From: Candidatus Pacearchaeota archaeon
Lineage (GTDB): Archaea; Nanobdellota; Nanobdellia; Pacearchaeales; GW2011-AR1
DNA: 64,000 bases
NCBI GenBank assembly: GCA_040879785.1
Contig: JBBDJR010000004.1
Span: forward strand, 14,778 to 78,777
Direction of reading: 5' to 3'
Shown piece by piece: positions 9,679-50,796 of this stretch (position 1 is the stretch's first letter; the number at the start of each line of letters is the position of its first letter). Below the pieces are notes generated by a model. That model ran no database searches. It saw only the letters and a program-made list of their open reading frames with translations, and was not told the origin of the DNA. The position numbers were made by a program, and so were the translations under genes.

Positions 9679-9719
9679 ATGATATATTAATGTTTATATA
9701 TGTATATAAATGTACCGAT

Positions 9720-12756: not shown

Positions 12757-12765
12757 TTTATTCTA

Positions 12766-15301: not shown

Positions 15302-15335
15302 GGATTTTATAAGGAAATTTTATTTATAAATCTTG

Positions 15336-18155: not shown

Positions 18156-20852
18156 ATGGAAAGTTCTTCTTTAAAGACCCAAAGAATAAAAAACGTAATG
18201 TCTATGTACTATGCCAGGAAAGATGTCCAAAAAGCCATATTTGATTTTTCAAAAAACAGAGAGATTGCACCTAGTTTTATGATGGAGAGCTTTGGAAAAA
18301 GACCTGACTCTTTTCAATATCAGGGAGATATATTTAGCCTGGTAAAAAAAGGGGCGACTTCATTTCACGGAAGCCAAGAACTCTGGAAAGACCCTCTTGA
18401 AATTTCTACAGACCACGACAGAAAACAACTCAATGAAATAAGAATAGGGTGGGACCTTCTATTTGATATAGACAGCAAATATCTCGACTATAGTAAAGTT
18501 CTTGTAAAAATAATAATAAAAATCCTTAATTTTTATTGTATTAAAAATATTGGAATAAAATTTAGCGTTTCAGGAGATACTCCTATATTGATAAAATGTG
18601 ATAATGAAATTTCTCTTATTTCAATAAAGGAAGCAATAGATCTTATAAAAAAAGGAAAAAAATTAGAAGTTTTATCCCTCGATAAAGAAAGGAAACTTAC
18701 GTTTTCAAAGATATATGATTTCTTAGAGCATGAAGATACTCTTTATGAATTAAAACATTCTCAAAGCACAATTCCTCTAAAGGCAACAGGGCATCACTCA
18801 GTTTTTGTATGGGATAAAGGAGATATCATTCAGAAAAAAGTTACAGAGCTGAAAAAAAGAGATTTTTTGGTTTCCTATCATTCTGAGAAAAATCCGTTCT
18901 CAGAAAAAAACCTAAAGATAACTCATAAGTTTGAATTAGGAAGAAACCAGTTCTCTAAAGAAATAATAAAAAAAGATATAAAAATAACTAATGAACTTGC
19001 CCGTTTAATAGGGTATTTTTTAGCAGAGGGTCATGTCACAAATACAATTAATCAGGTTGGATTTTCTTTTAATAAAAATGAAGAAGAATACATAAACGAT
19101 GTTAAAAATATCTTAGAAAAAATTACAAACAAGAAGATCTCAATAAGACATCCAAACCCCAACTCAACTCAAATATTAGTTCATTCCAAAGAATGGGCTG
19201 AATTCTTTGATAATTTTTGCGGAAAGAAAAAAGATAAACACGTGCCTCCTTTCATGTTTAAGTCTTCTAAAGAATTGTTTTTAGAAATGTTAAAAGGATA
19301 TATAAGAGGAGACGGATACAAAATAGGAGAATATGGAGTTGTTGCTAAGTCAGTTTCAAAAAGATTAGTCACCGAAATTGTTTGGCTTTGTGAGCTAAAT
19401 GGTATATCCTGCAATATGTCGTCCGAGAAAAATAAGCCTCATCTTTTGCCCCAAGGGAATTTGTTCAAAGGAAGTTTGGTATATATGTTAAGAATCCCTA
19501 AATCAGAACTTGTAGATTTGGAATTTAATCGCGGCAGGAACGGCTTTTCTCCCTATCCTGGAAGCAAGATCTTCCCAACAGACGGATTGAAGTCTGTTTA
19601 TTCCCAGATCAGGCCAAAAATGTTCAATCTACATCGGGCAGAGCAAATGACCCTTTCAAAAAAACGGGCAAATTTAAATAGGATCAGAAAAGTTTTAGAT
19701 TGGTTTTATAAATTTAAAAGTGTAGAACCTGACAAAGATTCCAGAAAGATTTTACTTAACTATGAAAAATTGTTTAATTCAGATATGTCCATTACAGAGA
19801 TTAAAGATATAACCAAAAAAAATAAGGCTCTTGTTTATGATGTTTCTGTGGAGGGGACCGAATCTTTCTTTGGGAATTTTTACCCTATTTTATTACATAA
19901 CTCAGGAAGCAAAGGATTCCATATAATTATTCCATGGAAGGCGTTCCCAAAAGAAATAAACGGAGTAAAGACTTCAGACATGTTCCCTGAATGGCCGAGA
20001 ATCATCACACAATTTATAATGAGTGTTTCAAATAATGAGCTCATAAAAGAGGTAACAGACCTCACAAAAGAGAGCCAGGGTACAAGCAAATACGTAAAAG
20101 ACTTTGAAGCTCCGAAGGAAGTAATCCCTGATTTAGTCCTTGTTTCCCCAAGACATTTATTTAGAATGCCCTATAGCCTCCACGAAAAAACAGCTCTTGC
20201 CAGTGTGGTTTTAAATCCGATTCCCGAAGAAATTGAGAACTTCCAGCCAAAAGATGCAGACCCTCTTAAAGTTAAAATAAAGAATTTCATTCCTGATTCA
20301 GAAGAAGGTGAGGCAACAGAACTTCTTAGAGAAGCTCTTGACTGGCACAAAAACCAGAATCCCGAAGAATCCGGAGAGATAAAAGAAAGAATGGAATTCA
20401 AACCAGCGAAGATATCAGAGATTTCTAAAGAGATGATTCCTCCATCAATAAAGAAGATTCTTGAAGGCGTTAGGGACGGAAGAAAACGTTCATTATTTAT
20501 TATTCTAAATTTCTTCAGGTCTATCGGAATGGATAAAGAAGAGATTGAGTCACGAGTATCGGAATGGAATGAAAAAAACGAGGTCCCTTTAAAACAAGGT
20601 TATATAAAATCTCAGCTCATATGGAGCTACAGAAACAAAGTAGTTCCTCCCCCAAACTACGATAAAGATTATTATAAGGGGATTGGCGTAACGCCGACGG
20701 AAGAAGAATTTAGATACAAGAATCCTGTTAATTATATTACGAGAAAGTCTGCACAGAAAAAGGCCAAAGAAATAGCTGAAAAGAAAAGAACTGGCAGAGT
20801 CAAAAAGAAAAACATATCTAAGAACAAAGATAATTTTAAAAATAAGGATTAA
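18156..20852 (+). CDS. priS: DNA primase catalytic subunit PriS containing a LAGLIDADG intein, with a C-terminal extension
   Basis: AEP motif I GWDLLFDIDSK. Motif II SGSKGFHIIIP forms after splicing. Motif III DLVLVSPRHLFRMPYSLHEK. The N-terminus aligns with archaeal PriS. Confidence 0.7.
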   Translation: MESSSLKTQRIKNVMSMYYARKDVQKAIFDFSKNREIAPSFMMESFGKRPDSFQYQGDIFSLVKKGATSFHGSQELWKDPLEISTDHDRKQLNEIRIGWDLLFDIDSKYLDYSKVLVKIIIKILNFYCIKNIGIKFSVSGDTPILIKCDNEISLISIKEAIDLIKKGKKLEVLSLDKERKLTFSKIYDFLEHEDTLYELKHSQSTIPLKATGHHSVFVWDKGDIIQKKVTELKKRDFLVSYHSEKNPFSEKNLKITHKFELGRNQFSKEIIKKDIKITNELARLIGYFLAEGHVTNTINQVGFSFNKNEEEYINDVKNILEKITNKKISIRHPNPNSTQILVHSKEWAEFFDNFCGKKKDKHVPPFMFKSSKELFLEMLKGYIRGDGYKIGEYGVVAKSVSKRLVTEIVWLCELNGISCNMSSEKNKPHLLPQGNLFKGSLVYMLRIPKSELVDLEFNRGRNGFSPYPGSKIFPTDGLKSVYSQIRPKMFNLHRAEQMTLSKKRANLNRIRKVLDWFYKFKSVEPDKDSRKILLNYEKLFNSDMSITEIKDITKKNKALVYDVSVEGTESFFGNFYPILLHNSGSKGFHIIIPWKAFPKEINGVKTSDMFPEWPRIITQFIMSVSNNELIKEVTDLTKESQGTSKYVKDFEAPKEVIPDLVLVSPRHLFRMPYSLHEKTALASVVLNPIPEEIENFQPKDADPLKVKIKNFIPDSEEGEATELLREALDWHKNQNPEESGEIKERMEFKPAKISEISKEMIPPSIKKILEGVRDGRKRSLFIILNFFRSIGMDKEEIESRVSEWNEKNEVPLKQGYIKSQLIWSYRNKVVPPPNYDKDYYKGIGVTPTEEEFRYKNPVNYITRKSAQKKAKEIAEKKRTGRVKKKNISKNKDNFKNKD
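18564..19901 (+). mobile_element. Intein (446 aa) with LAGLIDADG homing-endonuclease domain inside priS
   Basis: Starts with SVSGDTPIL (block A, Ser1). HE blocks LARLIGYFLAEGHV and LKGYIRGDGYK. Ends with ...ILLHN, followed by the extein Ser. Confidence 0.65.
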
Positions 20853-20863: not shown

Positions 20864-22825
20864 ATGGAAAAGAGGCGTGTTAATTTTGAAAAGAAAGGTA
20901 TTGCAATTTTGCTTTCCTTTTTTCTTGTATTATTAATTTTCTCGTTTGTTCAGGCACAGGATGCCGACGGAGAAGATGAAGAAACAGAAGAAGACCCTAT
21001 CGACATGGCATATTCCTGTCTTGAGGAAAACGTAGTGGACAAATGCTCCGCCCTTACAACAGAACAGAAAGTGTTTTCTTTATTGGCTATCAACCAGTGT
21101 GAGGAAGAACTAATTGAGGAATCTTCTAACAAAGGAGAGTGCTGGCCGTCTGGAAATTGTGACGTAGAAATAACCTCAAAAGCTGTCCTTGCCCTGAACC
21201 ATGTTGGGGCCAACACTACTTCTGCACAGGAATGGCTTAAATCAAAAAGCGAGCCTACAGAAGGTCTTGATTGGTTTATCCAGATTGAAAGCGGAGAAAC
21301 GTCATGTACCCTAACAGACGATAATGGTTATGAATACAATATAAATTTAATGGAAGATAAAACTATTGAAACAGATGACAATACAGCTGCCTGGCCCGGG
21401 CTTGAAATATCTGATGAAGGATACTGGCTTAAAGTCCTCCCTAAGTTTTACGGCAGAGATTTTAAAATAACCTGCGACGAGGGTTTCCAAACAAACTTAT
21501 TATTTAGGAAATCTGATGATCCGGGAACAATTCATGTTTTCCCTGATTTTTCCGAGAGAAGTGGAGGAGATTCTTCCAATGAAACAGTTGAATCTTCTTG
21601 TTTTGAAGAAAGGGACGGTTGCAGTTACTCAGGAGGTCTTTGGGCGGCACTTGTTCTTGACTTGCTTGAAGAGGACGTTTCTTCTTACCTTCCTTACCTA
21701 ATAACATTTAAGGAGGACAATCCGAGTCTTCTTCCAGATTCTTTCCTTTATTCCATAACTTCCGGAGATGATTACAAGGATTCTCTTCTTTCAGAACAAT
21801 CACAAAATAGATGGGATGTTTCCGGAGACGAATATTATGACACGGCTCTCGCGCTTTACCCTTTGTCAGACAATTCCCTAAGAGAGAAGGAGGATTCAAA
21901 AGAGTGGCTTCTTGAAGAGCAGGATGCTGACGGGTGCTGGCAGGGAGGAAATATAAGAAATACTGCGTTTGTGCTTGAGTCCGTATGGCCGAGGGATTTT
22001 ATAGGCAGTTCTGGTTCCGGCTCTGAAAACGGAGGAGACTCTACAATCTATTGTGAGGGTGCAGGGAATTATTGCGTTTCTTCATCAGGAGAGTGTTCAG
22101 GAGAGGTCATTGGCGACCAGGTTTGCCCGGGCTCATTTTCACCTGTTTGTTGTAGTCAGCCTCGGGAACAAAAAACCTGTTCTGATATTATTAATGAGCA
22201 CGGAGGAGATGGAGATGTTTGTTCTTCGTCGAGCCAAAGCTGTCAGGGCAGTCAAACCAGTGACGCTTCAGACTTAGGAGCTGGAGAAGTTTGCTGTTAT
22301 GGTGAAGGAGCATTTTGTAAGGATATTCCAGAACAGGAAGTTTCTGAATGTGAAGAGCAGGGAGGAGAGTGTAGAAGTTCTTGCTTTAGGGGCGAAGAAG
22401 AAGATTCACAATATTCATGTTCTCTAGAAAGTCAGGTCTGTTGTATGTCTTCTAGTTCTGATGAGGATGAAGGAAATGAAGAGGGAAATTTAATGTGGGT
22501 TTGGATTTTAGGGACACTTATAGTTCTTGTAGTAATTGGGATAATATTTAAAGATAAACTAAGAGAGTTCTGGCTAAAAATAAAATCTAAGTTTGGAGGT
22601 TCTAAATCTGGATCGGGAAGAGGAAGTCACGGCCCGGGAAGACCTCCGGGCAGACCCGGACCTCCACCACACTATCCAAGACCAAGAAGACCATCTTCAG
22701 AGAGGAGAGTTCTTCCAAGACCTCAGCCTCAACAATCCAGGCCCTCACCAAGACCAGAAAGAAAATCCGGGGCAAGCAAGGAATTAGACGACGTTCTTAA
22801 AAAACTGAAGGAGATGGGGAAGTAA
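20864..22825 (+). CDS. Membrane-anchored secreted protein with prenyltransferase/terpene-cyclase-like repeats, Cys-rich stalk and Pro/Arg-rich cytoplasmic tail
   Basis: Signal peptide. Repeats with QxxDGxW (EQDADGCWQGG, SQNRWDVSGDEYYDTALAL). Cys-rich region. TM helix LMWVWILGTLIVLVVIGIIF. Tail RPPGRPGPPPHYPRPRRP. Confidence 0.5.
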   Translation: MEKRRVNFEKKGIAILLSFFLVLLIFSFVQAQDADGEDEETEEDPIDMAYSCLEENVVDKCSALTTEQKVFSLLAINQCEEELIEESSNKGECWPSGNCDVEITSKAVLALNHVGANTTSAQEWLKSKSEPTEGLDWFIQIESGETSCTLTDDNGYEYNINLMEDKTIETDDNTAAWPGLEISDEGYWLKVLPKFYGRDFKITCDEGFQTNLLFRKSDDPGTIHVFPDFSERSGGDSSNETVESSCFEERDGCSYSGGLWAALVLDLLEEDVSSYLPYLITFKEDNPSLLPDSFLYSITSGDDYKDSLLSEQSQNRWDVSGDEYYDTALALYPLSDNSLREKEDSKEWLLEEQDADGCWQGGNIRNTAFVLESVWPRDFIGSSGSGSENGGDSTIYCEGAGNYCVSSSGECSGEVIGDQVCPGSFSPVCCSQPREQKTCSDIINEHGGDGDVCSSSSQSCQGSQTSDASDLGAGEVCCYGEGAFCKDIPEQEVSECEEQGGECRSSCFRGEEEDSQYSCSLESQVCCMSSSSDEDEGNEEGNLMWVWILGTLIVLVVIGIIFKDKLREFWLKIKSKFGGSKSGSGRGSHGPGRPPGRPGPPPHYPRPRRPSSERRVLPRPQPQQSRPSPRPERKSGASKELDDVLKKLKEMGK

Positions 22826-22861: not shown

Positions 22862-24202
22862 ATGAGAAAAAATAAAGAGGCATTCCTTTTTTTAGGAATA
22901 TTCGTTTTGTTGGCTTTCGCGGGTTCGTTGATTGTTAAAGATATAAGCATTACAGGCATGGCAACTTCCGAATTCCTTAAAGATTCCGATGAGTTTGACC
23001 AGGGAGAGACATTAATTGCGGAGATTTCGGGGAATTTTATAGACCAAATCACTCACGACAATGTTCATTTTTTTGAGGACCATGTAGGAATTCCAATGAT
23101 ACATGATGTAAAAAAAATAGAAGAAAGTTTTTTTATTTATGCCCAGCTTAAAGACAAATCTGCAGGGAATTATTCTTTTGTCATCAGTGATGTGAGGTAT
23201 ATGTTGGGGGCGGAAACAACCGACGAAGATATTGTGGTTCCTTTCAAGATTACAGAGAACACAGCAGATTTTTATGTTTCGCCGGGCTTTATTACAACTC
23301 GCGATGACTTTGACCTCGAGTTTCAGAATTTGAAATCAGATAGGATAACAATCTCGATAGAGCATTCTGATTTACTTGAATCACAGAATTCTTTAGAGTT
23401 GATTTCAGGAGAGATAGAAGAAATAAATTTCCAGAGAACAGAGAAATCCCAGGATTCAGAATATCATTTTGAAAAGATAACCTTGAGTTCCGGAGATACT
23501 TCTTATGAAGTTCCTGTTTTGCTTGAGCCTTTTGACGGAGCGGTTGACGAGGAGCAGGAGACGGAAGACCCTGAAGAAACAGAAGAGAAGCTTGATTTTA
23601 GGTTTGAGCCGAATTCTGCCAACGTGTCAATAGCTACAGAATCAGATTCAAAAAGAATAATCTATCTCCTAAACACCGGCGAAGACTTAATTGAAAATAT
23701 CTCAATCTCTGTTTCCCCTTCTCTAGATGATTATGTTAATGTCTCTCCTTCTGAAATTCTTATGTTAAGTGAAGGCTCCAGACAAAAAATTGAGATCTCT
23801 ATAATTTCAGGAGAAGACGAAGAGAGTTTAGAAGGAAAAATTAATGCCCTTTCAAAGAATCTCACAACTTCCTTTACCTTTAACCTAGATTTTGTAATAG
23901 ATTTTATTCCCGAGGATGAAGAAGAAAATGAAACTGGAACAGAAATAATCACCACTTGTGAACAGCTCGGCGGAAATATCTGCGGAAGCGGGGAGAGTTG
24001 CACCGGAGAAACAACTTCTGCTAAAGATGGAACTTGCTGTCTTGAACCCGCTATTTGTGAAGAAGACGAAGAATCAAACACTGGAAGAATTGTGGGATGG
24101 AGCATTGTCATTGTAGTTATCATCCTGCTTGCCTGGTTTTTCCTTAAATATAAAAAAGCCAGACCGAAGGCAGACATTCTTTCAAGGGGAAGGAAGAGGT
24201 AG
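22862..24202 (+). CDS. Surface protein with C-terminal Cys-rich stalk and TM anchor
   Basis: Signal peptide. Acidic. C-terminal TCEQLGGNICGSGESC...GTCCLEP, then the TM helix IVGWSIVIVVIILLAWFFL and a basic tail. Confidence 0.5.
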   Translation: MRKNKEAFLFLGIFVLLAFAGSLIVKDISITGMATSEFLKDSDEFDQGETLIAEISGNFIDQITHDNVHFFEDHVGIPMIHDVKKIEESFFIYAQLKDKSAGNYSFVISDVRYMLGAETTDEDIVVPFKITENTADFYVSPGFITTRDDFDLEFQNLKSDRITISIEHSDLLESQNSLELISGEIEEINFQRTEKSQDSEYHFEKITLSSGDTSYEVPVLLEPFDGAVDEEQETEDPEETEEKLDFRFEPNSANVSIATESDSKRIIYLLNTGEDLIENISISVSPSLDDYVNVSPSEILMLSEGSRQKIEISIISGEDEESLEGKINALSKNLTTSFTFNLDFVIDFIPEDEEENETGTEIITTCEQLGGNICGSGESCTGETTSAKDGTCCLEPAICEEDEESNTGRIVGWSIVIVVIILLAWFFLKYKKARPKADILSRGRKR

Positions 24203-30327: not shown

Positions 30328-30999
30328 ATGAAAATGGTTAGTATGGAATTTCAAAAATACAATATTACTGATAAAATTTATCTCTTAGTTTTCGAGAAGC
30401 AGAAAGACTTGGGAGAGACTTTTGTAAGATTTCAAGAGCATTATGAGTCTCCTGAATTTGCAGGAAGGATTTTTTCTCTGGAGGAATATAAAGATTGGTA
30501 TATTAAGAATATGCCAAATGCTAGAGAGAAAAGCAGGTTTACATATTATGAAGACTGGAATGGTTTTAATATTCCTTCTTATGTTATGAGGTCTTTTTAT
30601 GAAGGGAGATTCAACCCTCTTTCTGAAAAAGAACAAAAGATACTCGACTTATTTAGAAATGAAGAAGAACCTTTTTACATAATCGGGACGAATAAAGAAG
30701 TTGAAGATTTGGAAGGATATTTAAGACATGAAACTGCCCACGGTTTATTTTATACAGACAAAAAGTATCGGGATAAGGTTTTGAAAATTATTTCCGAATT
30801 TGACACTAGCAAAATGGAGAATGAATTAGTGGAACAAGGATATCATACAGAAGTCTTGAAGGATGAAGTTCATGCTTATAGTATAGATTATGAAGACAGT
30901 TTGAAAAATTGTCTTACTAAGGAAGCGAGAGAAATATTAAGAGAGGTTTATAAGGAATATCTAAAAAAGAACAATGCTTCATTTCCAGAGATAAAATGA
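30328..30999 (+). CDS. Hypothetical protein with HExxH motif
   Basis: 223 aa with LRHETAHGLFYT. No further assignment. Confidence 0.4.
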   Translation: MKMVSMEFQKYNITDKIYLLVFEKQKDLGETFVRFQEHYESPEFAGRIFSLEEYKDWYIKNMPNAREKSRFTYYEDWNGFNIPSYVMRSFYEGRFNPLSEKEQKILDLFRNEEEPFYIIGTNKEVEDLEGYLRHETAHGLFYTDKKYRDKVLKIISEFDTSKMENELVEQGYHTEVLKDEVHAYSIDYEDSLKNCLTKEAREILREVYKEYLKKNNASFPEIK

Positions 31000-31607
31000 G
31001 CCCTAAAAAAGCAATAAAGCAGTTGAAAGAATTGGAGAAAGAAGGTAAGACTATGAGGCTCGCCGCAGAGGCTTGGAAAAATGATTACGAAACACTTGTC
31101 TCCACCATCTTGTCTGCTCGCTCTTTAGACGAGATAACTATAAAATACTCAACGATTTTATTTGAGAAATATCCGACTCCTGAAGCCCTTTCAAAAGCGT
31201 CGGTAAGCGAAGTTGAGAAAATAATATTTCCTATAAACTTTTATCAGAACAAATCCAAATATATAATAAACTGTGCAAGAAAACTGGTAGAGGTTTACAA
31301 AGGCAAAGTACCACACGATTTTGAGAAGTTGATTGAACTGCCCGGAGTGGGAAGGAAAACCGCGAACGTTTTTTTGTCTCAAACGGGAAAAGACGCTATT
31401 GGCGTAGACACTCACGTTTCATACATCTCACAAAAACTCGGCTGGACGAAAAACGAGAATCCTGACAGAATTGAAGAAGACCTGAAAAAAACCTTTCCTG
31501 AAAAATACTGGAGTAAAGTCAATCCTACTCTCGTAAGATTTGGAAAGACACATACAAGCAGAAGAAAAAAAGACGAAATTTTAAAGGAGATTAAGAAGGT
31601 AAAATGA
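30996..31607 (+). CDS. nth: Endonuclease III-like HhH-GPD DNA glycosylase lacking the Fe-S cluster
   Basis: LVSTILSARSLDE, LPGVGRKTANVFL...GVDTHV. The C-terminus has no C-x6-C-x2-C-x5-C motif. Confidence 0.6.
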   Translation: MSPKKAIKQLKELEKEGKTMRLAAEAWKNDYETLVSTILSARSLDEITIKYSTILFEKYPTPEALSKASVSEVEKIIFPINFYQNKSKYIINCARKLVEVYKGKVPHDFEKLIELPGVGRKTANVFLSQTGKDAIGVDTHVSYISQKLGWTKNENPDRIEEDLKKTFPEKYWSKVNPTLVRFGKTHTSRRKKDEILKEIKKVK

Positions 31608-32041
31608 AAAATAAAAACCTAAAGATTTATTTTGCAGCCTCAATAAGAGGTGGAAGAGGCGATTCAGATTTGTACAAGGAATTAATCGATTACTTGAAAG
31701 GATTTGGTGAAGTTTTGTCAGAGCATATTGGAGATAAATCATTGACTCAAAAAGGGTCTAAGGGTTCTGAGAGAGGTATTCACGATGAGGATTTGAAATG
31801 GTTATTTATGTCAGATGTTGTAGTAGCAGAAGTTACCAATCCTAGTTTGGGGGTTGGATACGAGATCAGGGCAGCATTGGAGAAAGGAAAGAAAATATTG
31901 ACACTTTACAGGTTATCTGAAGGCAAGAAACTTTCTGCTATGATAAAAGGCTCTCCAGAGGTAGATAATTTTAACTATAAGGATGTAGAAGAAGCTAAAT
32001 CAATAATAAGGAATTATTTTGAAAATGAACTCCATAATTGA
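31604..32041 (+). CDS. DNPH1/Rcl-like 2'-deoxynucleoside 5'-phosphate N-hydrolase (nucleoside 2-deoxyribosyltransferase superfamily)
   Basis: IYFAASIRGGRGD ... DVVVAEVTNPSLGVGYEIRAA. Confidence 0.55.
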   Translation: MKNKNLKIYFAASIRGGRGDSDLYKELIDYLKGFGEVLSEHIGDKSLTQKGSKGSERGIHDEDLKWLFMSDVVVAEVTNPSLGVGYEIRAALEKGKKILTLYRLSEGKKLSAMIKGSPEVDNFNYKDVEEAKSIIRNYFENELHN

Positions 32042-32651
32042 ACTAATTGAAAAACTTAAGAACGAGCCCGTGAGCGAAACAATAAGTCAGAGGATGAAAG
32101 AATTTGAAGATCTCGGCAAAAAACATTCCAATGAGATTTTCAAGGAACTTTGTTTCTGCCTCCTTACAGCAAACTTCAGCGCGGCAGGAGGAATAAAAAT
32201 TCAAAACGAAATCGGAGACGGGTTTTTACATCTAACCGAAAAAGAACTTGCAACAAAACTTTCAGATCTGGGCCACAGGTTTCCTAACGCAAGAGCAAAA
32301 TATATTCTTGAATCACAAAAGCACAAAGATAATTTAAAAGAAACTCTCACTTTTTTAAAGGATGACGAAGAAGCTCGAGACTGGCTCATCAAAAACATAA
32401 AAGGACTCGGAATGAAAGAGGCCAGCCATTTTTTAAGAAACATAGGGTACAAAAACGTCGCAATCCTTGATTTTCATATAATTGACCTTCTTGTAGGCGA
32501 GGGCATCATAGAAAGACCGAAGACACTAACTCCAAAAAGATATCTTGAAATTGAAAATTCCTTAAAAGAGTTGTCGGAGAAAACACAAATTCCCTTAGGA
32601 GAACTTGATTTATATCTTTGGCACCACGAAACCGGGAAAGTTTTGAAATAG
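32019..32651 (+). CDS. ogg: 8-oxoguanine DNA glycosylase/AP lyase (archaeal Ogg2-type, HhH-GPD)
   Basis: GLGMKEASHFLRNIGYKNVAILDFHI, the HhH-GPD motif. Size and pattern match N-glycosylase/DNA lyase. Confidence 0.6.
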   Translation: MKMNSIIELIEKLKNEPVSETISQRMKEFEDLGKKHSNEIFKELCFCLLTANFSAAGGIKIQNEIGDGFLHLTEKELATKLSDLGHRFPNARAKYILESQKHKDNLKETLTFLKDDEEARDWLIKNIKGLGMKEASHFLRNIGYKNVAILDFHIIDLLVGEGIIERPKTLTPKRYLEIENSLKELSEKTQIPLGELDLYLWHHETGKVLK

Positions 32652-32706
32652 CTACGTAAAAGTTTATAAACCCTTTAAGACAGTTCTAACAGTTAAATTT
32701 CTTAAA

Positions 32707-33372
32707 ATGAGAAAAAGATTCAAAACTATCAAGTATGCTGCAATTCCTTTTTTAGTTGGGGCTCTAATATTCAATGGTCCAACAAACAAGGAGAATTTCG
32801 GAAAAGTATTAGATGATAAGATTATTGAACCCTTAAGTCTAACAGCAGTTGATGTGAAAGATGCTTTAGAATATAAGCTAGACCTTAACAATCCTCCAGA
32901 AAGAATCTCTGAAACATTACGAGATGTTTATGAAAGTATATCCATTCCGAAACCAGATTATTTTAATAAAGAATTCATCAAAGAAATTATAAGGGTTGAG
33001 TCAGGATTCGATTCTAATGCAGTAAGCAACAGAGGTGCAAGAGGGTTGATGCAACTTATGGAAGGAACGTTTAAAGAGAGAAGCCGGGAAATATATGATA
33101 AATCTCTTTCATTTGACAAAGCTTTTGATCCTGAGGTAAATATTCGTGTCGGAATACATCATCTTTTGTGGATAAATCAATATGCTGAGAGAAGGCATCC
33201 TCAATGGAATGAACTAGATAACTATGAAAAAATGAGGGCAGTAAAATCAGCTTATAACGCAGGCGCTTTTAGAATGGCTAGTAGAGATTGGGATATTAAG
33301 AGAGCTCCTCTTGAAACAAGAAGATATATAGATAGGATTGAGAGAGGACTAAAAGGTCAGTTTGATTTATAA
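32707..33372 (+). CDS. Secreted lytic transglycosylase (SLT domain, lysozyme-like)
   Basis: Signal/TM at the N-terminus. EIIRVESGFDSNAVSNRGARGLMQLMEGTF and AYNAG are the SLT catalytic motifs. Confidence 0.7.
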   Translation: MRKRFKTIKYAAIPFLVGALIFNGPTNKENFGKVLDDKIIEPLSLTAVDVKDALEYKLDLNNPPERISETLRDVYESISIPKPDYFNKEFIKEIIRVESGFDSNAVSNRGARGLMQLMEGTFKERSREIYDKSLSFDKAFDPEVNIRVGIHHLLWINQYAERRHPQWNELDNYEKMRAVKSAYNAGAFRMASRDWDIKRAPLETRRYIDRIERGLKGQFDL

Positions 33373-33375: not shown

Positions 33376-33972
33376 TTATTTCTTCAGAGCCTTCCTCTGC
33401 TGCTGCTTTGGTTGCTTAGACATTTTCGTCTGATGCTTAGACATCTGAGCCGCTTTCTTGGCCTGCTCTTTTCCTGCCTCAACTACCGAAGCTTTTTTCT
33501 CTTCTTTTTCTTGCTGAGTTTCAGGCTCTTCCTTTTTACCTTCTTCACCTGATTTTTCTTTATCTTTAGATTCTTCTTCAGGCTCTTCCGGTTTCTTTTC
33601 TTCTTTCTTTTCCAAAGATTCTAATGACTTTTGTTTTCTCTTATCCAGCTTGGCCTTTCTGAATTTGATCTTGTCAGGGAAATCCATAAGCTCAACCCTA
33701 ATCACATCTCCTTCTCTAAATGCTTTTACCTTAACTCTTGCAGGAGGATTCTTTATCCCTCTCATCCATAAAAAATTGTTAAGATATGTATCAAGCTTAA
33801 TTTTGTTTAGATCCCTGTCGCGAATTTTCATATGCCTGGCAAGAAACTCTTTCACAGCTTTAACAGCCTTATTGGTTTTCTTATATCTAGCTTCCTTAAT
33901 CCATTTACTTCTAAGAGGAATTGTATATTCTCTTTCTTCTCCCTTAGTTTCTTGTTTTTTTTCTTCCGCCAT
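33376..33972 (-). CDS. rpl31e: Ribosomal protein L31e with long K/E-rich C-terminal extension
   Basis: EREYTIPLRSKW...AVKAVKEFLARHMK...LNNFLWMRGIKNPPARVKV, then ~75 aa of K/E-rich tail. Confidence 0.8.
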   Translation of the reverse strand: MAEEKKQETKGEEREYTIPLRSKWIKEARYKKTNKAVKAVKEFLARHMKIRDRDLNKIKLDTYLNNFLWMRGIKNPPARVKVKAFREGDVIRVELMDFPDKIKFRKAKLDKRKQKSLESLEKKEEKKPEEPEEESKDKEKSGEEGKKEEPETQQEKEEKKASVVEAGKEQAKKAAQMSKHQTKMSKQPKQQQRKALKK

Positions 33973-33991
33973 TTTATATTATAATTTTCAA

Positions 33992-34195
33992 TTACCCAAA
34001 ATGAGATTTTTTCTGTTTTCTTGGTTTAATATGCAGTTTTGTTCTCTTCCACGATCTTCTGTTTTGTGTCATAGCAGACGGATGCACTTTTTTCCCAACC
34101 CCATATTTTCTTAAAACAGCCCATACCGGAGCCCATTTCGTCTGCTTTCCCTTCTTGGAAAGTCTTGATTTTTTATCCTTATTTTTTATGCCCAT
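33992..34195 (-). CDS. rpl39e: Ribosomal protein L39e
   Basis: 67 aa. KKSRLSKKGKQTKWAPVWAVLRKYG...RRSWKRTKL. Confidence 0.8.
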   Translation of the reverse strand: MGIKNKDKKSRLSKKGKQTKWAPVWAVLRKYGVGKKVHPSAMTQNRRSWKRTKLHIKPRKQKKSHFG

Positions 34196-34196
34196 C

Positions 34197-34646
34197 TTAT
34201 TTTATACTCTCCATGAATTTTTTACCTTTCTCTGTAATCTGTCTTCCGGGTCTCTTGCTTCTTACCCCTTTGATATCTTTAGCAATTTCTGTGAACTCCG
34301 CCTTATCAGATTGCTGTAAAATACTTCTTATTATCTTTCCTCCACTTTTTCTAAACTTTTCAGGTCTTGCCCCTCTCTCTTTCTTGCTTCCATATCTATT
34401 TTTTAGTCGATTAACTCCAACGATTTTTCTTTTGTAAACTTGCCTCAGAATACTTGCAGCTCTTTTATACCAAAAATCTTCATCGTCAATCGGCCTCGAT
34501 TTTCCGGAGCCGGACTTAACAAACTCAATCCAGGCAGGCTTCTTAAATTCAGGGATTTTTTTTAGAGCCTCTGCTAACTTAAGATTGTAATCTTGGCTTT
34601 CTAAATCATAAATAGGATTTTTTATATTTTCCATTTTTATTAACAA
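34197..34646 (-). CDS. rps19e: Ribosomal protein S19e
   Basis: YDLESQDYNLKLAEALKK...PAWIEFVKSGSGKSRPIDDEDFWYKRAASILRQVY...RLKNRYGSKKERGARPEKFRKSGGKIIRSILQQ. Confidence 0.8.
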   Translation of the reverse strand: MLIKMENIKNPIYDLESQDYNLKLAEALKKIPEFKKPAWIEFVKSGSGKSRPIDDEDFWYKRAASILRQVYKRKIVGVNRLKNRYGSKKERGARPEKFRKSGGKIIRSILQQSDKAEFTEIAKDIKGVRSKRPGRQITEKGKKFMESIK

Positions 34647-36539: not shown

Positions 36540-38003
36540 TTAGTAAACTATTTTAGGACCATAACCCCAATGCTCAACTGCTTTTGCAAGAGGGGTTTCT
36601 GGATTTTCCTTTACAAATTTTCTTAATGAAATTCCTTCCTCATAAATTGTTCTGGCTTCTTCAATCGCGATGACTCCTGCTTCAACTCCGTTTGGATGTC
36701 CCAACAAACCTCCTCCACACTGGATTAAGATGTCGCTTCCCAACTCTTTTAATACGGCTTCAAAATCTCCGGGATGTAATCCTCCCGAGGCTGTCATCCA
36801 GACAGGTTTTATGTGATACCAGTTTTGACCTAAGCTCGGAATTTCTTTATGCGGTTTAAGATTTTTTTCCTGAAGAACTTGCTGAATATACTTTGCCTCA
36901 TTATAATCCTCCATCTTCGCAAGCGGCGAGCCTCCGTGAAGCGAATCAACACCGAGAAGTCTGAAAAGTTTAGCTATAAATATCATTGAGATTGAGAAAC
37001 CATAGAGTTTTCCTGTTCCGTGTATTCCTGGAGAATTATCTCTTGTTATAAACCCGTGCATTGCTCTATGGGCATGAATTGCCAATCCCAGGTTCTTTCT
37101 CCTTACTGTGTCAACTCCTGTAAACCCTGTCGTAATCACATCCATCATCATAAAAATCCCTCCGTTCTTTTTTATAAAATCAGCCCGGGAGAGCATCTCA
37201 TCAATATTTGAATGCGTTGTATTGCTCAAATAAAATTTCTTATGCCCTGTTTTCTTTTCTGCTTTCTTCAGCTCTTTAAGGACAAGTTTAGTTCTTTTTC
37301 TGAAATTGTTAAACGAGAGGTTTGTAAGATTTTCGTCGTCTTTTATTCCTTCATAGGTCCCTTTTCCCGAGTTAAACAAGACTTCTGCAAGGCTTGCCTG
37401 TTCTTTGTCCGTCCTTCCGATTTTTGGTTTTGGAACAGTTGCAACTAAACATCCTTTTGGTTTTTTGAGAAGTTTCCTCACTCCCTGAACACCAAACCTC
37501 GGTCCGGGAAAAGCCTTAATCATTTTTTTAGGAAATCTAACATCGTACATTCTCATGGCAGAAACCATCTTCATTCCTGCAATATTCCCAACAATCCCTG
37601 CAAGAAGTCCTGAGACATTGTCCATTTCAAACAACTCTAAAGGGTACGCAATTTTGAACATGTGTTTTTTATAATCAAGGTCGTAAGCGCGAGCCCTTAT
37701 CTTTCCTGCAAGAGGAATCCCCGAATCTTTTCCGTCGTAAACGTTAGTCCATGTTCCGGTAGAACTTTCTGCAGCCACGGTCGCAGCAGCATCTTCAAAT
37801 AACCTATCAATCTTTTTCTGCCCTTTCTTAAGATGAGCATATTTAGCCTCTTTCACAGCTTTCTTGTCCATCTCAACTTTCAAAAGAGTAATTATATAAT
37901 TCTCATCAGGATTCTTAGGTTTCCATCCCTTCGGCGCCAGATAATCTAATTGTACAGCCATGCGATTCCGCTCACTCCGTTCGTTGCATACGCTTCGCCC
38001 CAA
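36540..38003 (-). CDS. rbcL: Ribulose-1,5-bisphosphate carboxylase large subunit, form III (true start probably at MAVQLDY, ~37964)
   Basis: Catalytic residues are retained: VPKPKIG (KPK), GIKDDENL (carbamylated K plus DE), HAHRAMHG, ASGGLHPG, QCGGGLLGHP. Confidence 0.8.
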   Translation of the reverse strand: MGRSVCNERSERNRMAVQLDYLAPKGWKPKNPDENYIITLLKVEMDKKAVKEAKYAHLKKGQKKIDRLFEDAAATVAAESSTGTWTNVYDGKDSGIPLAGKIRARAYDLDYKKHMFKIAYPLELFEMDNVSGLLAGIVGNIAGMKMVSAMRMYDVRFPKKMIKAFPGPRFGVQGVRKLLKKPKGCLVATVPKPKIGRTDKEQASLAEVLFNSGKGTYEGIKDDENLTNLSFNNFRKRTKLVLKELKKAEKKTGHKKFYLSNTTHSNIDEMLSRADFIKKNGGIFMMMDVITTGFTGVDTVRRKNLGLAIHAHRAMHGFITRDNSPGIHGTGKLYGFSISMIFIAKLFRLLGVDSLHGGSPLAKMEDYNEAKYIQQVLQEKNLKPHKEIPSLGQNWYHIKPVWMTASGGLHPGDFEAVLKELGSDILIQCGGGLLGHPNGVEAGVIAIEEARTIYEEGISLRKFVKENPETPLAKAVEHWGYGPKIVY

Positions 38004-45910: not shown

Positions 45911-48900
45911 ATGAGTGGAGAGAATACACTTTTTAATGATACCACAATAAAAAGATTAGTCTCAGATACTAAACTGACATCTAAACAGAAAAAAGCTTCT
46001 CAAGAATGGCTTAAACTAATTGAAGAAGACAAATTAATAAAAGAGAAGCAAGGATACCTTAGGTTTTATGATATTATCCTAAAGGAGTTATTAGGGTATG
46101 ATAATATTAAACACGAAAAAGAAGGTGTTGAATTTTCTTATGAAAAAGAAGGAAAACCTATCTTAAGAATTGAGGCAAAGGGGATGGATACTCCAGATTT
46201 GTTTCTGCCCCAGAAGAGAGCAAGAGAAGAGTCTCCAGTTCAACAACTTTGGAGATATATGCAATTACATGCAAGTCCTTATGGGATAGTCACTAATTAT
46301 AAAATTTTTATTTTTTTCAAATACGACATTGGAAGCACAAAATATTATCTCTTTGATTTTGAAGAGATAAAAAAAGACTCGAACAAACTGCAAGAATTTG
46401 TAGCTATTTTTTCAAAAGAAAATATAGATAAGGGTTTTGTTGAAGATTTATACGAAGAATCAATAATTGAAGAAAGAGAGTTTACAAAAGAATTCTACAA
46501 GTTATATCATGAAACAAGATTAATGTTGATAAAGGAATTTGAAGAAAACCCAGATATTAGTAGGGAGGCTTCTGTTCACTTTGCACAACTTTTCCTTAAT
46601 AGGTTAATGTTCGTATTTTTTGCAGAAGATACCGGAAAGATAGATAAGAGGGTTATTGAGGACAGAATTTTGAAGACCTTGGATAACATTCATTTATTCT
46701 CATCAAATTCTTCAAATATTTCTAATGTGTTGGTAGGATTATTTAGGGATTTAGACAAAGGAAGTGATTTTCCAATTAAGGTTTTTGGATTTAATGGAGG
46801 ATTATTTCACCATCCAATTCCCCCAAAAATTTACTTCAAAGATTTTAGAGATAGTAAATTTTTCAAGGATGTTAATCAATATTCAAAATTAAAGAAAAAA
46901 GATTTAGAAATAAATGAGAAAGAAAAAGAGATTTTTGAGAAATATAAAAATAAGATTAGTCCAATAATAAAAAATGTTTTGTTGATGGCTTCATTTGATT
47001 TTAATACTGAAGTGGATGTTAATATTTTAGGGCATATTTTTGAGCAATCTATTTCAGATATTGAAGATTTGAAAATTGACAAAAGCTCAAGAAGAAAAAA
47101 AGAAGGAATTTATTATACGCCTTCATATATAACAGACTACATTTGTAGAAACACAATAATTCCTTATCTCTCGAATAAAGGGGAAACAGAAATTTCTGGC
47201 TTGATCAAGGAATATGCTGATAATATTTGGGATTTAGAAAAAAAGTTTAAAGAAATGAAAATCTTAGATCCTGCTTGTGGTTCTGGAGCATTTTTAATTA
47301 GAGCTACTGACATTATGCTTGAAGTATTTAAGGCAATTCAAGAATTTAAACAACAAGAAGGAGAGTATGGGGCAAAAAGAGGATTAAAAAGAAAGAGCAA
47401 TAACAAAGGACAATTAATCTTGGAAAAATGGAACGAAGAAGCAGAAGCAAGAGAGATTATAGAAAATAATATTTATGGCGTAGATATTAATGAAGAGTCT
47501 GTTGAGATAACAAAACTTTCGTTGTTCTTGAAAATGGCACGAAAGAATAGAAAACTCACGGATTTATCTAATAATATCAAAAAAGGAAATAGTTTGATAA
47601 ATGATTCTTCTGTTGCTGGAGATTTGGCTTTTGATTGGGATAAAGAGTTTAAAGATATAATGGACAATGGCGGATTTGATGTTGTTATTGGGAATCCTCC
47701 TTATGTCGAAGCAAGAAGTATAGAACAAAAATTTGTAGATTTCTTAAGGAAGAATTATAAAACCTCTGGCAATAGGATAAACATCTTCGCTTCTTTTATT
47801 GAAAAAGGTCTTAGCTTACTAAAGACAGAAGGATATTTTAGTTATATTATTCATAGAAACCTAATACGTTCAAACGACTACCATAAAACAAGAAGATATA
47901 TTTTAGATAATTCAAAAATAAAACAAATATTAAGTTTTTCACAAGGAGTTTTTGAGGGTGTAACGGGAGAGATGACCGTTGTAATATTAAAAAAAAGCAA
48001 CTATGAAAAAAAGGAAAATACATTGCTTGTTTATGAATATGGAAGTGAGATAAATCCAGATATTAAACCATGGAAGATAAAACAAGGAATCTTTGAAGAA
48101 ACTGCGGGGAATAGATTTAACATATATCTGACCGATAAAAAAATTAAAATCTTAGAAAAAATAAAACAAAAATGTTCTAAGTTAGGAGAATTGGCTGAAA
48201 CATACCAAGGCATTATTGTCGGAAATGAAAAAAAATATGTTTCAAAAAACAAAGAATCTGATAAATATAAACCAATTTTAAGAGGTAGAGATATTTCTCG
48301 TTATGGGTATCCAAGAGCAAAAGAATTTGTTTATTATGTTCCTGGAACAAAAGTGCTTACAAGAGGAAAAACACCCTCATTATTTGAAAAAAAGGAAAAA
48401 ATATTAACTCAACACGTTTCTGGAGATATTATAGCAACATTAGACGCAGAGCAAAAATATTTTCTACAAACAATAAATTCTACGACATCCATTAAAGAGG
48501 GTATTAAAAATAAGTATTTACTTACCTTATTAAATTCAAAAGTAATAAATTTTTATTATAGCAGTATATTTAATCTAGGAGCAGAGTTTACAACTGCCGT
48601 AGCAATAGAAAATCTAGATGAACTCCCTATAAAAACAATTTCTCTTTCAGAACAAAAACCCTTCATAGAAAAATCAGACTTAATGCTAAAACTAAATAAA
48701 GAATTCTACGAGAAAAAGAATAAATTTTTGAAGCTTATTAAACACGAATATAAAATTGAAAAGATTACTAAAAAATTAGATGAGTTTTATAAATTAGAAT
48801 TTGATGACTTTATCAAGCAATTAAAAATTAAGGTAAATATAGATAAAAAATCTGAAATTTTGGACTTTTTTGAAAAAAACAAAAAAGAGATATCCAAATT

Positions 48901-49006: not shown

Positions 49007-49110
49007 AAATATATAAACTGAAAAATCAATTGAATAATAACTAAAAGAGAGGTGATCGGAGAAGAATCCGGGTGATCCCTCTCTGATTACTTCTGAGATA
49101 GATAATAATT

Positions 49111-49920: not shown

Positions 49921-49941
49921 TAATTTCTATTAAATTCTAGT

Positions 49942-50790: not shown

Positions 50791-50796
50791 GGTATA

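What the first reader, a model, noticed from the sequence alone, without database searches (positions are those of the whole stretch)
32707..33372. Bacterial-type soluble lytic transglycosylase (SLT) with secretion signal in an archaeal genome
ESGFDSNAVSNRGARGLMQLMEGTF plus AYNAG are the catalytic motifs of family-1 lytic transglycosylases that cleave peptidoglycan. Archaea lack murein, so a secreted SLT suggests interaction with bacteria (predation, parasitism or competition) or a horizontally acquired phage or bacterial gene. It sits between DNA-repair genes and ribosomal proteins, not in an obvious island.
Basis: partly seen in the sequence, partly recalled or inferred. Interest (0 to 1): 0.55.

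Follow-up and report, generated by a model that had tools for sequence, protein, structure and literature searches.

The report
Exported peptidoglycan-cutting enzyme in a Pacearchaeote
A tiny groundwater-type archaeon, which has no bacterial-style cell wall, carries an intact, apparently exported bacterial-type wall-cutting enzyme that its lineage has kept for a long time; the gene is real, but this kind of gene is already reported for these archaea and none has been tested in the lab.

Summary
Window 32707-33372 (+) encodes a 221-aa protein with a Pfam SLT domain (68.8 bits, cutoff 21.3). The E98-S99, GLMQ and AYNAG motifs are intact. The predicted fold is very confident and matches Slt, MltC and MltE. 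The N-terminus looks like a Sec signal. The contig is archaeal (16S/23S rRNA, RNase P, L31e/L39e/S19e).

The gene is not a recent import. Its composition matches its neighbours. A 38%-identical homolog and a second relative occupy the same slot against L31e-L39e-S19e in two other archaeal assemblies. A sister group sits between ThrRS and TrpRS in four Woesearchaeota-type genomes. dN/dS is 0.25.

It belongs to a small subfamily (244 clusters of 1.84 billion) that also includes bacterial and phage proteins, so the origin is an old transfer from bacteria or phages.

The most likely function is exported cleavage of bacterial peptidoglycan. The substrate and the ecological role are inferred.

NCBI already annotates this exact protein as SLT domain-containing. 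Castelle 2021, Vigneron 2022 and a 2024 ISME J paper already report GH23 transglycosylases in Pacearchaeota and Woesearchaeota. What is modestly new is the compact single-domain form and its conserved synteny. No archaeal SLT has been assayed.

The parts
32707..33372 (+). Complete gene for a 221-aa SLT-domain protein. It is identical to P0001, which NCBI names 'MAG: transglycosylase SLT domain-containing protein [Candidatus Pacearchaeota archaeon]'.
   Evidence: ORF. Pfam SLT 68.8 bits. Exact match in the protein collection.
32658..32670 (+). Promoter-like element: purine-rich AAAAG (BRE-like) followed by TTTATAAA (TATA-like), starting 44 nt before the ATG. It lies in the 55-nt gap after the Ogg stop codon, so the gene probably has its own promoter.
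   Evidence: Sequence read directly. The same palindromic octamer occurs 13 times in the window, including 43 nt upstream of the MarC-family gene at 42189. Function is inferred and not tested statistically.
32707..32787 (+). Signal-like N-terminus (residues 1-27): basic n-region MRKRFKTIK, hydrophobic core YAAIPFLVGALIF, then polar NGPTN. No Cys or lipobox and no clear AxA cleavage site.
   Evidence: The segment stays below a 19-residue TM threshold that real anchors in the same window pass. An equivalent basic-plus-hydrophobic N-terminus is present in nearly all clade members. No dedicated signal-peptide predictor was available.
32788..32889 (+). Low-confidence, poorly conserved linker (residues 28-61) between the signal and the catalytic domain.
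   Evidence: AlphaFold2 pLDDT about 47-56 for residues 1-60. These columns are not conserved in the family alignment.
32890..33360 (+). Catalytic all-helical goose-lysozyme/SLT fold (residues 62-218).
   Evidence: pLDDT 90-98 across this span. Foldseek top hits are Slt 5ohu (E = 7.6e-6), MltC 4c5f and MltE 4hjy (TM normalised to target 0.63).
32998..33003 (+). Catalytic Glu98-Ser99 (codons GAG TCA), at the end of helix 88-99.
   Evidence: Aligns with the catalytic Glu of P. aeruginosa Slt. Invariant in 125 of 125 relatives. Helix boundaries.
33043..33054 (+). GLMQ motif (residues 113-116), motif II of family-1 lytic transglycosylases.
   Evidence: G, L and Q are invariant and M is present in 124 of 125 sequences.
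33250..33264 (+). AYNAG motif (residues 182-186), motif III.
   Evidence: Y183 and G186 are invariant; N184 is present in 119 of 125 sequences.
33307..33330 (+). C-terminal PLETRRYI motif (residues 201-208), a signature of this subfamily (consensus MPxETRxYV). It is also present in the phage member L097.
   Evidence: P201, E203 and Y207 are nearly invariant. The L097 protein ends with ...VPKETREYVDKV.
33376..34646 (-). Convergent L31e-L39e-S19e ribosomal-protein block. The L31e stop lies 3 nt from the SLT stop. This is the conserved syntenic partner of the SLT gene in group A.
   Evidence: Pfam. The same arrangement is found in L002-L004 and L088.

Best explanation
The gene encodes a small exported family-1 (CAZy GH23-type) lytic transglycosylase. 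The basic-plus-hydrophobic N-terminus sends it through the Sec pathway to the outside of the cell, where it is released or stays tethered by an uncleaved signal. A roughly 35-residue flexible linker carries a single catalytic domain. By analogy with Slt70, MltE and MltC, Glu98 acts as the acid/base that cleaves the beta-1,4 MurNAc-GlcNAc bond of murein and produces 1,6-anhydro-MurNAc ends. The archaeon makes no murein of its own, so the substrate is bacterial peptidoglycan: either the wall of a living bacterium it attaches to or competes with, or wall debris it scavenges. An ancestor of these DPANN lineages obtained the gene long ago from a bacterial or phage SLT subfamily. It has since been inherited vertically under purifying selection as a normal chromosomal gene. 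Shown here: the domain, motifs, fold, archaeal host, synteny, selection and subfamily relationships. Inferred: export, peptidoglycan as the substrate, the lytic (non-hydrolytic) chemistry and the ecological role.
For: Domain and active site: Pfam SLT 68.8 bits; alignment to the catalytic Glu of solved Slt structures; motifs invariant in 125 relatives. Fold: pLDDT 90-98 over residues 62-218, and all top PDB matches are lytic transglycosylases. Export: signal-like N-terminus conserved across the clade and too short and too weakly hydrophobic for a TM helix. Own promoter-like box. Archaeal, non-chimeric host. No sign of recent transfer: GC 0.345 and codon usage within the neighbours' range. Vertical descent: the same slot against L31e-L39e-S19e in independent assemblies L002-L004 and L088; a sister group between ThrRS and TrpRS in L001, L086/87, L091 and L175; SLT identity tracks neighbour identity (41% vs 44-78%, and 68% vs 70-95%); dS 0.85 is similar to the neighbours and dN/dS is 0.25. 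Murein as target: another Woesearchaeota SLT carries a LysM wall-binding domain, a relative is fused to a Peptidase_M15_4 D-Ala-D-Ala carboxypeptidase domain, and a NagZ-like GH3 gene lies 5 kb from the SLT in L086/87. The literature proposes the same role (PMC8204110, PMC9723730, PMC11537232). Other classes of archaeal peptidoglycan hydrolase have been shown to kill bacteria (PMC12352652).
Against: No biochemical data exist for any archaeal SLT. This protein has no wall-binding domain, so substrate specificity rests on the catalytic domain alone. GH23-fold enzymes can bind or cleave chitin-type oligosaccharides: MltE was crystallised with chitopentaose and Cj0843 with chitotriose. No signal-peptidase cleavage site is evident, and Pro follows the hydrophobic core. 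Among about 50 ORFs scanned in this 64-kb window, no peptidoglycan-salvage genes (NagZ, LdcA, AnmK, MurQ) were found. Only this window, not the whole genome, could be checked for the absence of murein synthesis. Distribution is patchy: GH23 is absent from some Pacearchaeota (PMC11537232).
Confidence: 0.6

Rival explanations
1. The enzyme is exported but acts on a glycan other than murein: chitin or chito-oligosaccharides, another GlcNAc-rich polymer, or an envelope glycan of an archaeal host. It would then serve nutrition or attachment to an archaeal partner, not a bacterial one.
For: The GH23 fold accommodates chitin oligomers: MltE with chitopentaose (4hjy) and Cj0843 with triacetylchitotriose (7lam) appear among the structural matches. 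The protein has no peptidoglycan-binding module. LysM, found in the L042 relative, binds chitin as well as murein (PMC12352652). All cultivated DPANN have archaeal hosts (general knowledge, echoed in PMC8204110).
Against: All close sequence and structure relatives are murein lytic transglycosylases. The murein-specific motifs are strictly conserved. A family member is fused to a D-Ala-D-Ala carboxypeptidase-type domain, which only makes sense for murein. Pseudomurein has beta-1,3 links that lysozyme-fold enzymes do not cut (established knowledge).
Confidence: 0.15
2. The enzyme works on the archaeon's own surface. It would remodel an unrecognised glycan layer so that pili or other surface machines can be assembled, as specialised lytic transglycosylases do in bacteria.
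For: The best NCBIfam hit is a flagellar-assembly lytic transglycosylase, though far below its cutoff (45 vs 234 bits). The window holds a cluster of pilin-like and surface-protein genes at 0.7-17 kb. Stable vertical inheritance among housekeeping genes would suit a housekeeping role.
Against: No murein-synthesis gene was seen in the window. An S-layer protein is encoded at 2727-5135. The SLT gene is 15 kb from the pilin-like cluster and is not syntenic with it in any relative. Patchy distribution among Pacearchaeota (PMC11537232) argues against an essential self-directed role.
Confidence: 0.08
3. The gene is a recent import or an artefact: a phage or bacterial fragment mis-assembled into an archaeal bin, or a newly transferred gene with no established role.
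For: The subfamily includes phage virion proteins (L097, 982 aa, C-terminal SLT) and bacterial or virus-like contexts (L093, L094, L095). PHROG endolysin and tail-lysin profiles match.
Against: The best match in known phage genomes is 33% identical with E = 7e-5, and viral structure matches are no better than bacterial ones. Composition matches the host. Archaeal rRNA and ribosomal-protein genes lie on the same contig. The same gene order recurs in independent assemblies from other samples. dS equals that of the neighbours and dN/dS is 0.25.
Confidence: 0.03

Closest known systems
Family-1 bacterial lytic transglycosylases with solved structures: P. aeruginosa Slt (5ohu, 6fbt), E. coli Slt70 (1qsa), MltC (4c5f), MltE/EmtA (2y8p, 4hjy)
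   Same: Same Pfam domain, same E-S / GLMQ / AYNxG motifs, and same all-helical goose-lysozyme-like fold. MltE is also a single-domain enzyme of about 190 aa and gives the best target-normalised TM-score, 0.63.
   Different: Only 19-30% identical in structural alignments. The protein does not reach the cutoff of any NCBIfam equivalog (Slt, MltC, EmtA, MltF). It lacks the superhelical U and L domains of Slt70 and the lipobox of MltE. It has a subfamily-specific insertion with conserved W167 and a C-terminal MPxETRxYV motif. Its host is an archaeon.
[quoted passage not shown] 2021, PMC8204110; Woesearchaeota AR20, Castelle 2015; 'large lytic murein transglycosylase', Vigneron 2022, PMC9723730; GH23 in 'many Pacearchaeota genomes', PMC11537232)
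   Same: Same domain, same host lineages, same proposed extracellular action on bacterial walls.
   Different: The published emphasis is on very large proteins, up to about 3,000 aa. This one is a 221-aa single-domain protein from a compact subfamily of mostly 190-260 aa with conserved synteny. Whether it was counted within fam00969 could not be checked.
Short (about 190 aa) membrane-anchored SLT proteins of Clostridia, Halanaerobiales and other Bacillota (for example named hits from Acetivibrio, Acetohalobium, Orenia and Pelotomaculum; many carry PF27553 plus SLT)
   Same: Similar size and layout: an N-terminal hydrophobic segment followed by one SLT domain. They are the nearest named bacterial proteins in the profile search.
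   Different: They score 93 bits or less against the archaeal profile, versus 106-344 bits for the archaeal tier. They fall in a separate clade (bootstrap 67). They have strongly hydrophobic true TM anchors (maximum hydropathy 2.5-3.6, mostly about 3 or more, vs 2.5 here). Many have an N-terminal PF27553 domain that is absent here.
Experimentally validated archaeal peptidoglycan hydrolases: Halogranum salarium M23 peptidase 'woldo' (PMC12352652) and Aciduliprofundum boonei GH25 muramidase (Metcalf 2014, cited there)
   Same: Bacterial-origin, secreted, wall-degrading enzymes in archaea that make no murein.
   Different: Different catalytic classes (M23 peptidase, GH25). Those enzymes are modular, with wall-binding domains. 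That survey deliberately excluded single-domain enzymes like this one.
Phage virion-associated SLT domains (tail or internal-virion lysins; PHROG 669, 2013, 342; L097 982-aa protein)
   Same: Same domain. L097 shares the subfamily's C-terminal PxETRxYV motif.
   Different: In phages the domain is the C-terminal module of a large structural protein, without a signal peptide. Here it is a free-standing exported protein in a cellular chromosome.

Membership tests
Pfam SLT (PF01464) / family-1 lytic transglycosylases / CAZy GH23-type | Significant match to the SLT domain model above the curated cutoff | tested here: met
   68.8 bits vs cutoff 21.3, E = 3.7e-19, residues 87-191.
Pfam SLT (PF01464) / family-1 lytic transglycosylases / CAZy GH23-type | Catalytic Glu followed by Ser (E-S) at the C-terminal end of a helix | tested here: met
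   E98-S99 lies at the end of helix 88-99. It aligns with the catalytic Glu of P. aeruginosa Slt, which is Q in the 6fc4 E503Q mutant. Invariant in 125 of 125 relatives.
Pfam SLT (PF01464) / family-1 lytic transglycosylases / CAZy GH23-type | Conserved motifs GLMQ and AYNxG | tested here: met
   G113-L-M-Q116 and A182-Y-N-A-G186 are present and conserved.
Pfam SLT (PF01464) / family-1 lytic transglycosylases / CAZy GH23-type | Goose-type-lysozyme-like all-helical fold | tested here: met
   AF2 pLDDT 90-98 over residues 62-218. The top 38 Foldseek PDB hits are all lytic transglycosylases, with g-type lysozymes lower in the list.
Pfam SLT (PF01464) / family-1 lytic transglycosylases / CAZy GH23-type | Non-hydrolytic cleavage of MurNAc-GlcNAc producing 1,6-anhydroMurNAc | not testable with these tools
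   Requires an enzyme assay on sacculi with LC-MS of the products.
Named E. coli-type subfamilies (Slt70, MltC, EmtA/MltE, MltF) as NCBIfam equivalogs | Score above the equivalog cutoff | tested here: not met
   26.7 vs 536 (Slt), 26.7 vs 375 (MltC), 19.2 vs 233 (EmtA), 14.4 vs 354 (MltF). It is a family-1 enzyme but not a member of any of these named subfamilies.
Large extracellular murein-like transglycosylase proteins of Pacearchaeota and Woesearchaeota (fam00969, PMC8204110) | SLT domain in a Pacearchaeota or Woesearchaeota genome, predicted extracellular | tested here: met
Large extracellular murein-like transglycosylase proteins of Pacearchaeota and Woesearchaeota (fam00969, PMC8204110) | Large multi-domain protein (up to about 3,000 aa) | tested here: not met
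   221 aa with a single domain. No large SLT protein was found among the ORFs of this window.
Large extracellular murein-like transglycosylase proteins of Pacearchaeota and Woesearchaeota (fam00969, PMC8204110) | Sequence clustering into fam00969 | not tested
Modular archaeal peptidoglycan hydrolases (Strock et al. 2025, PMC12352652) | A catalytic domain plus at least one cell-wall-binding domain | tested here: not met
   Only the SLT domain is detected. Residues 1-61 are a signal plus a disordered linker. A different Woesearchaeota SLT (L042) does carry LysM.
Bacillota-type short membrane-anchored SLT proteins (PF27553 + SLT) | N-terminal PF27553 domain and a strongly hydrophobic TM anchor | tested here: not met
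   Only PF01464 is recorded for P0001. The hydrophobic segment is below the TM threshold. It falls in a separate clade.

The most novel reading that the evidence does not exclude
The compact SLT may be a long-retained, vertically inherited part of the lifestyle of particular Pacearchaeota and Woesearchaeota lineages, because they live on bacteria rather than on archaea. An exported lytic transglycosylase would open the bacterial sacculus at the contact site, perhaps together with the pilin-like and surface-protein cluster. That would make these organisms cross-domain episymbionts or micropredators of bacteria, a host relationship not yet demonstrated for any cultivated DPANN archaeon.
Probability: 0.25. 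Interest if true: 0.7.

Novelty: new member of a known kind. Interest (0 to 1): 0.3.

Why it matters
If the enzyme really cuts bacterial walls, it is a concrete and easily expressed handle (about 160 catalytic residues, one essential Glu) on an open question in DPANN biology: who are the partners or prey of the very abundant and still uncultivated Pacearchaeota and Woesearchaeota? Its stable inheritance next to core translation genes in two lineages suggests that it matters to the organism. However, the presence of such genes and the 'bacterial host or prey' hypothesis are already published, and the gene is correctly annotated in GenBank. The finding therefore adds detail (a compact subfamily, its synteny, selection on it, and mixed archaeal/bacterial/phage membership) and does not add a new concept.

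Tried and rejected
1. Chimeric contig or contamination: rejected. Archaeal rRNAs and ribosomal proteins lie on the same contig, composition is uniform, and the same gene order occurs in independent assemblies.

2. Recent phage origin: rejected. The best hit in known phages is 33% identical with E = 7e-5. BFVD structure matches are no closer than bacterial ones. IMG/VR holds subfamily relatives (L095, L097), but at 37% identity or less and in non-archaeal contexts.

3. True transmembrane anchor: unlikely. The 19-residue hydropathy is about 1.2, below the 1.6 reached by real anchors in the window.

4. Peptidoglycan-salvage or murein-synthesis partners in the window: none were found among about 50 ORFs scanned with Pfam. 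A second or large SLT protein in the window was also not found.

5. A single archaeal clade: not resolved. The 40-sequence subfamily clade has bootstrap 67, but verified bacterial and virus-like members branch between archaeal groups A and B, and internal supports are low (17-25). The L042 SLT+LysM protein is a separate acquisition.

6. Taxon names for more subfamily members: cluster look-ups returned almost no names.

7. Metagenome scan for more syntenic loci: the group-A profile (A4) was too divergent for pattern extraction.

8. Sigma-70 promoter and terminator scan: uninformative for an archaeon.

Full report
OBSERVATION

The ORF at 32707-33372 (+) is real: ATG start, 221 aa. It matches Pfam SLT (PF01464) over residues 87-191 with E = 3.7e-19 and 68.8 bits against a curated cutoff of 21.3.

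Against solved structures, the best sequence matches are P. aeruginosa Slt (E about 8e-8), then MltC and Slt70. E98 sits in the column of the catalytic Glu, which is Q in 6fc4, the E503Q mutant. In an alignment of 125 relatives, E98, S99, G113, L114, Q116, Y183 and G186 are invariant.

An AlphaFold2 model built on 62 sequences has pLDDT 90-98 for residues 62-218 and about 50 for residues 1-60. Foldseek against the PDB returns only lytic transglycosylases at the top: Slt, MltC, MltE, LtgA, Cj0843 and MltF. Goose-type lysozymes come further down. TM normalised to the single-domain MltE is 0.63.

THE HOST IS AN ARCHAEON AND THE CONTIG IS NOT CHIMERIC

- The window carries archaeal LSU and SSU rRNA genes and archaeal RNase P RNA.
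- It also encodes L31e, L39e, S19e, Cbf5, PCNA, a primase, class I LysRS, form III-type RuBisCO and an S-layer-like protein.
- The exact protein is in NCBI as 'MAG: transglycosylase SLT domain-containing protein [Candidatus Pacearchaeota archaeon]' on a 126-kb contig.
- The gene's GC (0.345) and codon usage lie within the range of its core-gene neighbours.
- The only compositional island in the window, at 46-52 kb with GC 0.29, is a restriction-modification/defence cluster 13 kb away.

ANATOMY

- Residues 1-9 (MRKRFKTIK) are basic and residues 10-22 (YAAIPFLVGALIF) are hydrophobic, followed by polar NGPTN.
- This segment is shorter and less hydrophobic than true membrane anchors in the same window. 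Its 19-residue hydropathy is about 1.2, below the 1.6 threshold that those anchors pass. It therefore resembles a Sec signal h-region.
- No clear signal-peptidase site is visible, so an uncleaved tether cannot be excluded.
- An equivalent N-terminus occurs in almost all clade members.
- Residues 28-61 are a non-conserved, low-confidence linker.
- A BRE/TATA-like AAAAG-TTTATAAA lies 44 nt upstream of the ATG, in the 55-nt gap after Ogg. The same octamer lies 43 nt upstream of the MarC-family gene. This suggests an own promoter, which is an inference.
- The SLT stop is 3 nt from the stop of the convergent L31e gene.

RELATIVES AND HISTORY

A single-sequence search found only three full-length relatives, at 34-42% identity. 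A profile search showed a score cliff: about 40 proteins at 106-344 bits, then a plateau of 93 bits or less made of short membrane-anchored SLT proteins from Clostridia, Halanaerobiales and other bacteria.

An exhaustive profile search of 1.84 billion representatives gave 68,699 SLT-superfamily hits at E <= 1e-3, but only 244 at E <= 1e-30. Most of these are 190-260 aa. This is a small, distinct subfamily, marked by a W167-containing insertion and a C-terminal MPxETRxYV motif.

Genomic contexts define two archaeal groups:

- Group A: the SLT is convergent on L31e-L39e-S19e-YhbY-NFACT-NUDIX-RuBisCO-CysRS, with Cbf5 upstream. It is seen in the window, in Hainich groundwater contigs L002-L004 and in GCA_964510715 (L088).
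- Group B: ThrRS (archaeal editing domain) - SLT - TrpRS/TyrRS-type synthetase - a protein of about 640 aa - HAD. It is seen in a Woesearchaeota MAG (L001), a 'Nanoarchaeota archaeon' MAG (L086/87), L091 (with insertions) and L175.

Within group A, SLT identity tracks that of the neighbours but is the lowest or close to it. Window vs L002 is 41% for the SLT against 44-78% for neighbours. L002 vs L088 is 68% against 70-95%. For L002 vs L088, the SLT's dS (0.85) is like that of its neighbours and dN/dS is 0.25, against 0.03-0.18 for neighbours. This is the signature of a vertically inherited gene under purifying selection, evolving somewhat faster as exported proteins typically do.

The subfamily is not purely archaeal:

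- P0046 lies in a bacterial context (L093).
- P0042 lies in a virus-like context (L094).
- IMG/VR holds relatives, including a 982-aa phage structural protein with a C-terminal SLT domain that shares the PxETRxYV motif (L097), and a high-GC 163-kb contig (L095).
- One member cluster carries a Flavobacteriaceae label.

In a bootstrapped NJ tree, the 40-member subfamily separates from the Bacillota-type proteins with bootstrap 67. Internally, a bacterial/viral cluster branches between groups A and B with weak support. One or two ancient acquisitions therefore cannot be distinguished. A Woesearchaeota SLT with a C-terminal LysM domain (L042) falls elsewhere among bacterial sequences, so it is an independent acquisition. 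Known phages contain nothing close: the best tblastn match is 33% identical with E = 7e-5.

MECHANISM

The best-supported explanation is that the protein is exported by the Sec pathway and that its single catalytic domain cleaves the MurNAc-GlcNAc bond of bacterial peptidoglycan, using Glu98 as in Slt70, MltE and MltC. Archaea of this kind have an S-layer (2727-5135), and no murein genes were seen in the window, so the substrate would be foreign.

Indirect support for murein as the family's substrate comes from relatives: LysM fused to SLT in L042, a Peptidase_M15_4 (D-Ala-D-Ala carboxypeptidase type) fused to SLT in P0039, and a NagZ-like GH3 gene 5 kb from the SLT in L086/87.

Whether the enzyme serves attachment to or entry into a bacterial host, antagonism, or scavenging of wall debris cannot be decided from sequence. 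Rivals are action on a non-murein glycan (GH23 folds do bind chitin oligomers), a self-directed surface-remodelling role, and an artefact or recent import. The last is essentially excluded.

COMPARISON WITH WHAT IS KNOWN

The protein meets every testable defining feature of family-1 lytic transglycosylases: domain, E-S, GLMQ, AYNxG and fold. It meets none of the NCBIfam equivalog cutoffs for Slt, MltC, EmtA or MltF.

The presence of such domains in these archaea is published:
- Castelle et al. [quoted passage not shown]
- Vigneron et al. 2022 report GH23 'large lytic murein transglycosylase' genes in Woesearchaeota and propose a 'vampiristic' lifestyle (PMC9723730).
- A 2024 ISME J paper states that many Pacearchaeota genomes encode GH23 murein transglycosylase, although some lack it (PMC11537232).
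- Strock et al. 2025 showed experimentally that archaeal peptidoglycan hydrolases kill bacteria, but for an M23 peptidase. Their survey was restricted to modular enzymes with wall-binding domains, which excludes this single-domain protein (PMC12352652).

I found no report of an assayed archaeal SLT.

VERDICT

The added value is the recognition of a compact, signal-bearing subfamily of about 200 aa (244 clusters). It has conserved synteny in two DPANN lineages and clear purifying selection, and it shares ancestry with bacterial and phage SLT domains. Interest is 0.3, and I file it as a new member of a known kind.

Noticed in passing
window 684-17147 (- strand): This looks like a cell-surface gene cluster. 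It has an S-layer-like 802-aa protein (2727-5135). Several small ORFs have N-termini typical of archaeal type IV pilin-like (class III) signals, [KR]GQ followed by about 20 hydrophobic residues: 6822-7328, 7329-7802, 9720-10256, 14486-15301 and possibly 7796-8791. Large signal-bearing proteins without any Pfam match lie at 10513-12756, 12766-14517 and 15336-17147, and also at 20864-22825 and 22862-24202. The cluster could be relevant to cell-cell attachment.
   Followed up: partly
window 18156-20852 (+): An 898-aa ORF combines DNA primase small-subunit and large-subunit domains (a PriS-PriL fusion). It is interrupted by an intein with a LAGLIDADG homing-endonuclease domain.
   Followed up: no
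window 45911-52266: A low-GC (0.29) island next to the rRNA operon. It holds a 1031-aa MmeI/Eco57I-like type IIG restriction-modification enzyme, a DUF3800 protein, a GIY-YIG/DUF4357 protein and a DUF2779/RNase H-like protein. It is probably a horizontally acquired defence island.
   Followed up: partly
window, 13 copies of TTTATAAA (e.g. 32663, 42146, 52292, 58434): The palindromic octamer TTTATAAA recurs 13 times. It sits 43-44 nt upstream of the start codons of the SLT gene and the MarC-family gene, so it may be this organism's TATA-box consensus. Enrichment was not tested statistically.
   Followed up: partly
window 30328-32651 vs L002 4767-5781: Compared with the syntenic Hainich contig, the window has four extra genes between Cbf5 and the SLT: an unknown 223-aa protein with no Pfam hit, EndoIII, a nucleoside 2-deoxyribosyltransferase-family protein and Ogg.
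   Followed up: partly
window 36540-38003 (-) vs L002 10010-11308 and L088 4600-5898: The RuBisCO in the conserved slot is much more divergent (41-44% identity) than its syntenic neighbours (56-78%). It is also longer (487 vs 432 aa, TTG start). This may reflect replacement by a different RuBisCO form or a mis-called start.
   Followed up: no
window 56585-56659 (-): ARAGORN calls a tRNA-Asp (GTC) in the 16S-23S spacer, but the Rfam tRNA model did not report it at gathering threshold. Archaeal spacers usually carry tRNA-Ala.
   Followed up: no
L086 / L087 11326-12339 (+): A 323-337-aa GH3 N-domain-only protein (NagZ-like size) lies about 5 kb downstream of the SLT in the 'Nanoarchaeota archaeon' genome. 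NagZ-type enzymes process GlcNAc-anhydroMurNAc products of lytic transglycosylases, which hints at muropeptide salvage.
   Followed up: partly
L042 5794-6618 (+): Woesearchaeota RIFCSPLOWO2_01_FULL_Archaea_34_35 encodes a 274-aa protein with a signal, an SLT domain and a LysM domain. It groups with bacterial sequences outside the subfamily studied here, so it is an independent acquisition of an SLT domain by a DPANN archaeon, this time with a wall-binding module.
   Followed up: partly
L092 5987-7081 (+) (P0039): A 364-aa subfamily member fuses a Peptidase_M15_4 (D-Ala-D-Ala carboxypeptidase type) domain to the SLT domain, making a two-activity murein hydrolase. The taxon of the contig is unclear; it also carries DUF723, NUDIX and glycosyltransferase genes.
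   Followed up: no
L097 2454-5402 (+); also L096, L098-L100: A group of IMG/VR contigs of about 33-35 kb. In L097, the one whose ORFs were inspected, the SLT is the C-terminal domain of a 982-aa virion/tail-type protein and shares the PxETRxYV signature of the archaeal subfamily. These phages could be donors or recipients.
   Followed up: partly
window 63305-63847 (-): This 180-aa ORF matches only the C-terminal barrel of enolase (profile positions 99-282). It is either a truncated or split gene, or the start codon is mis-called.
   Followed up: no
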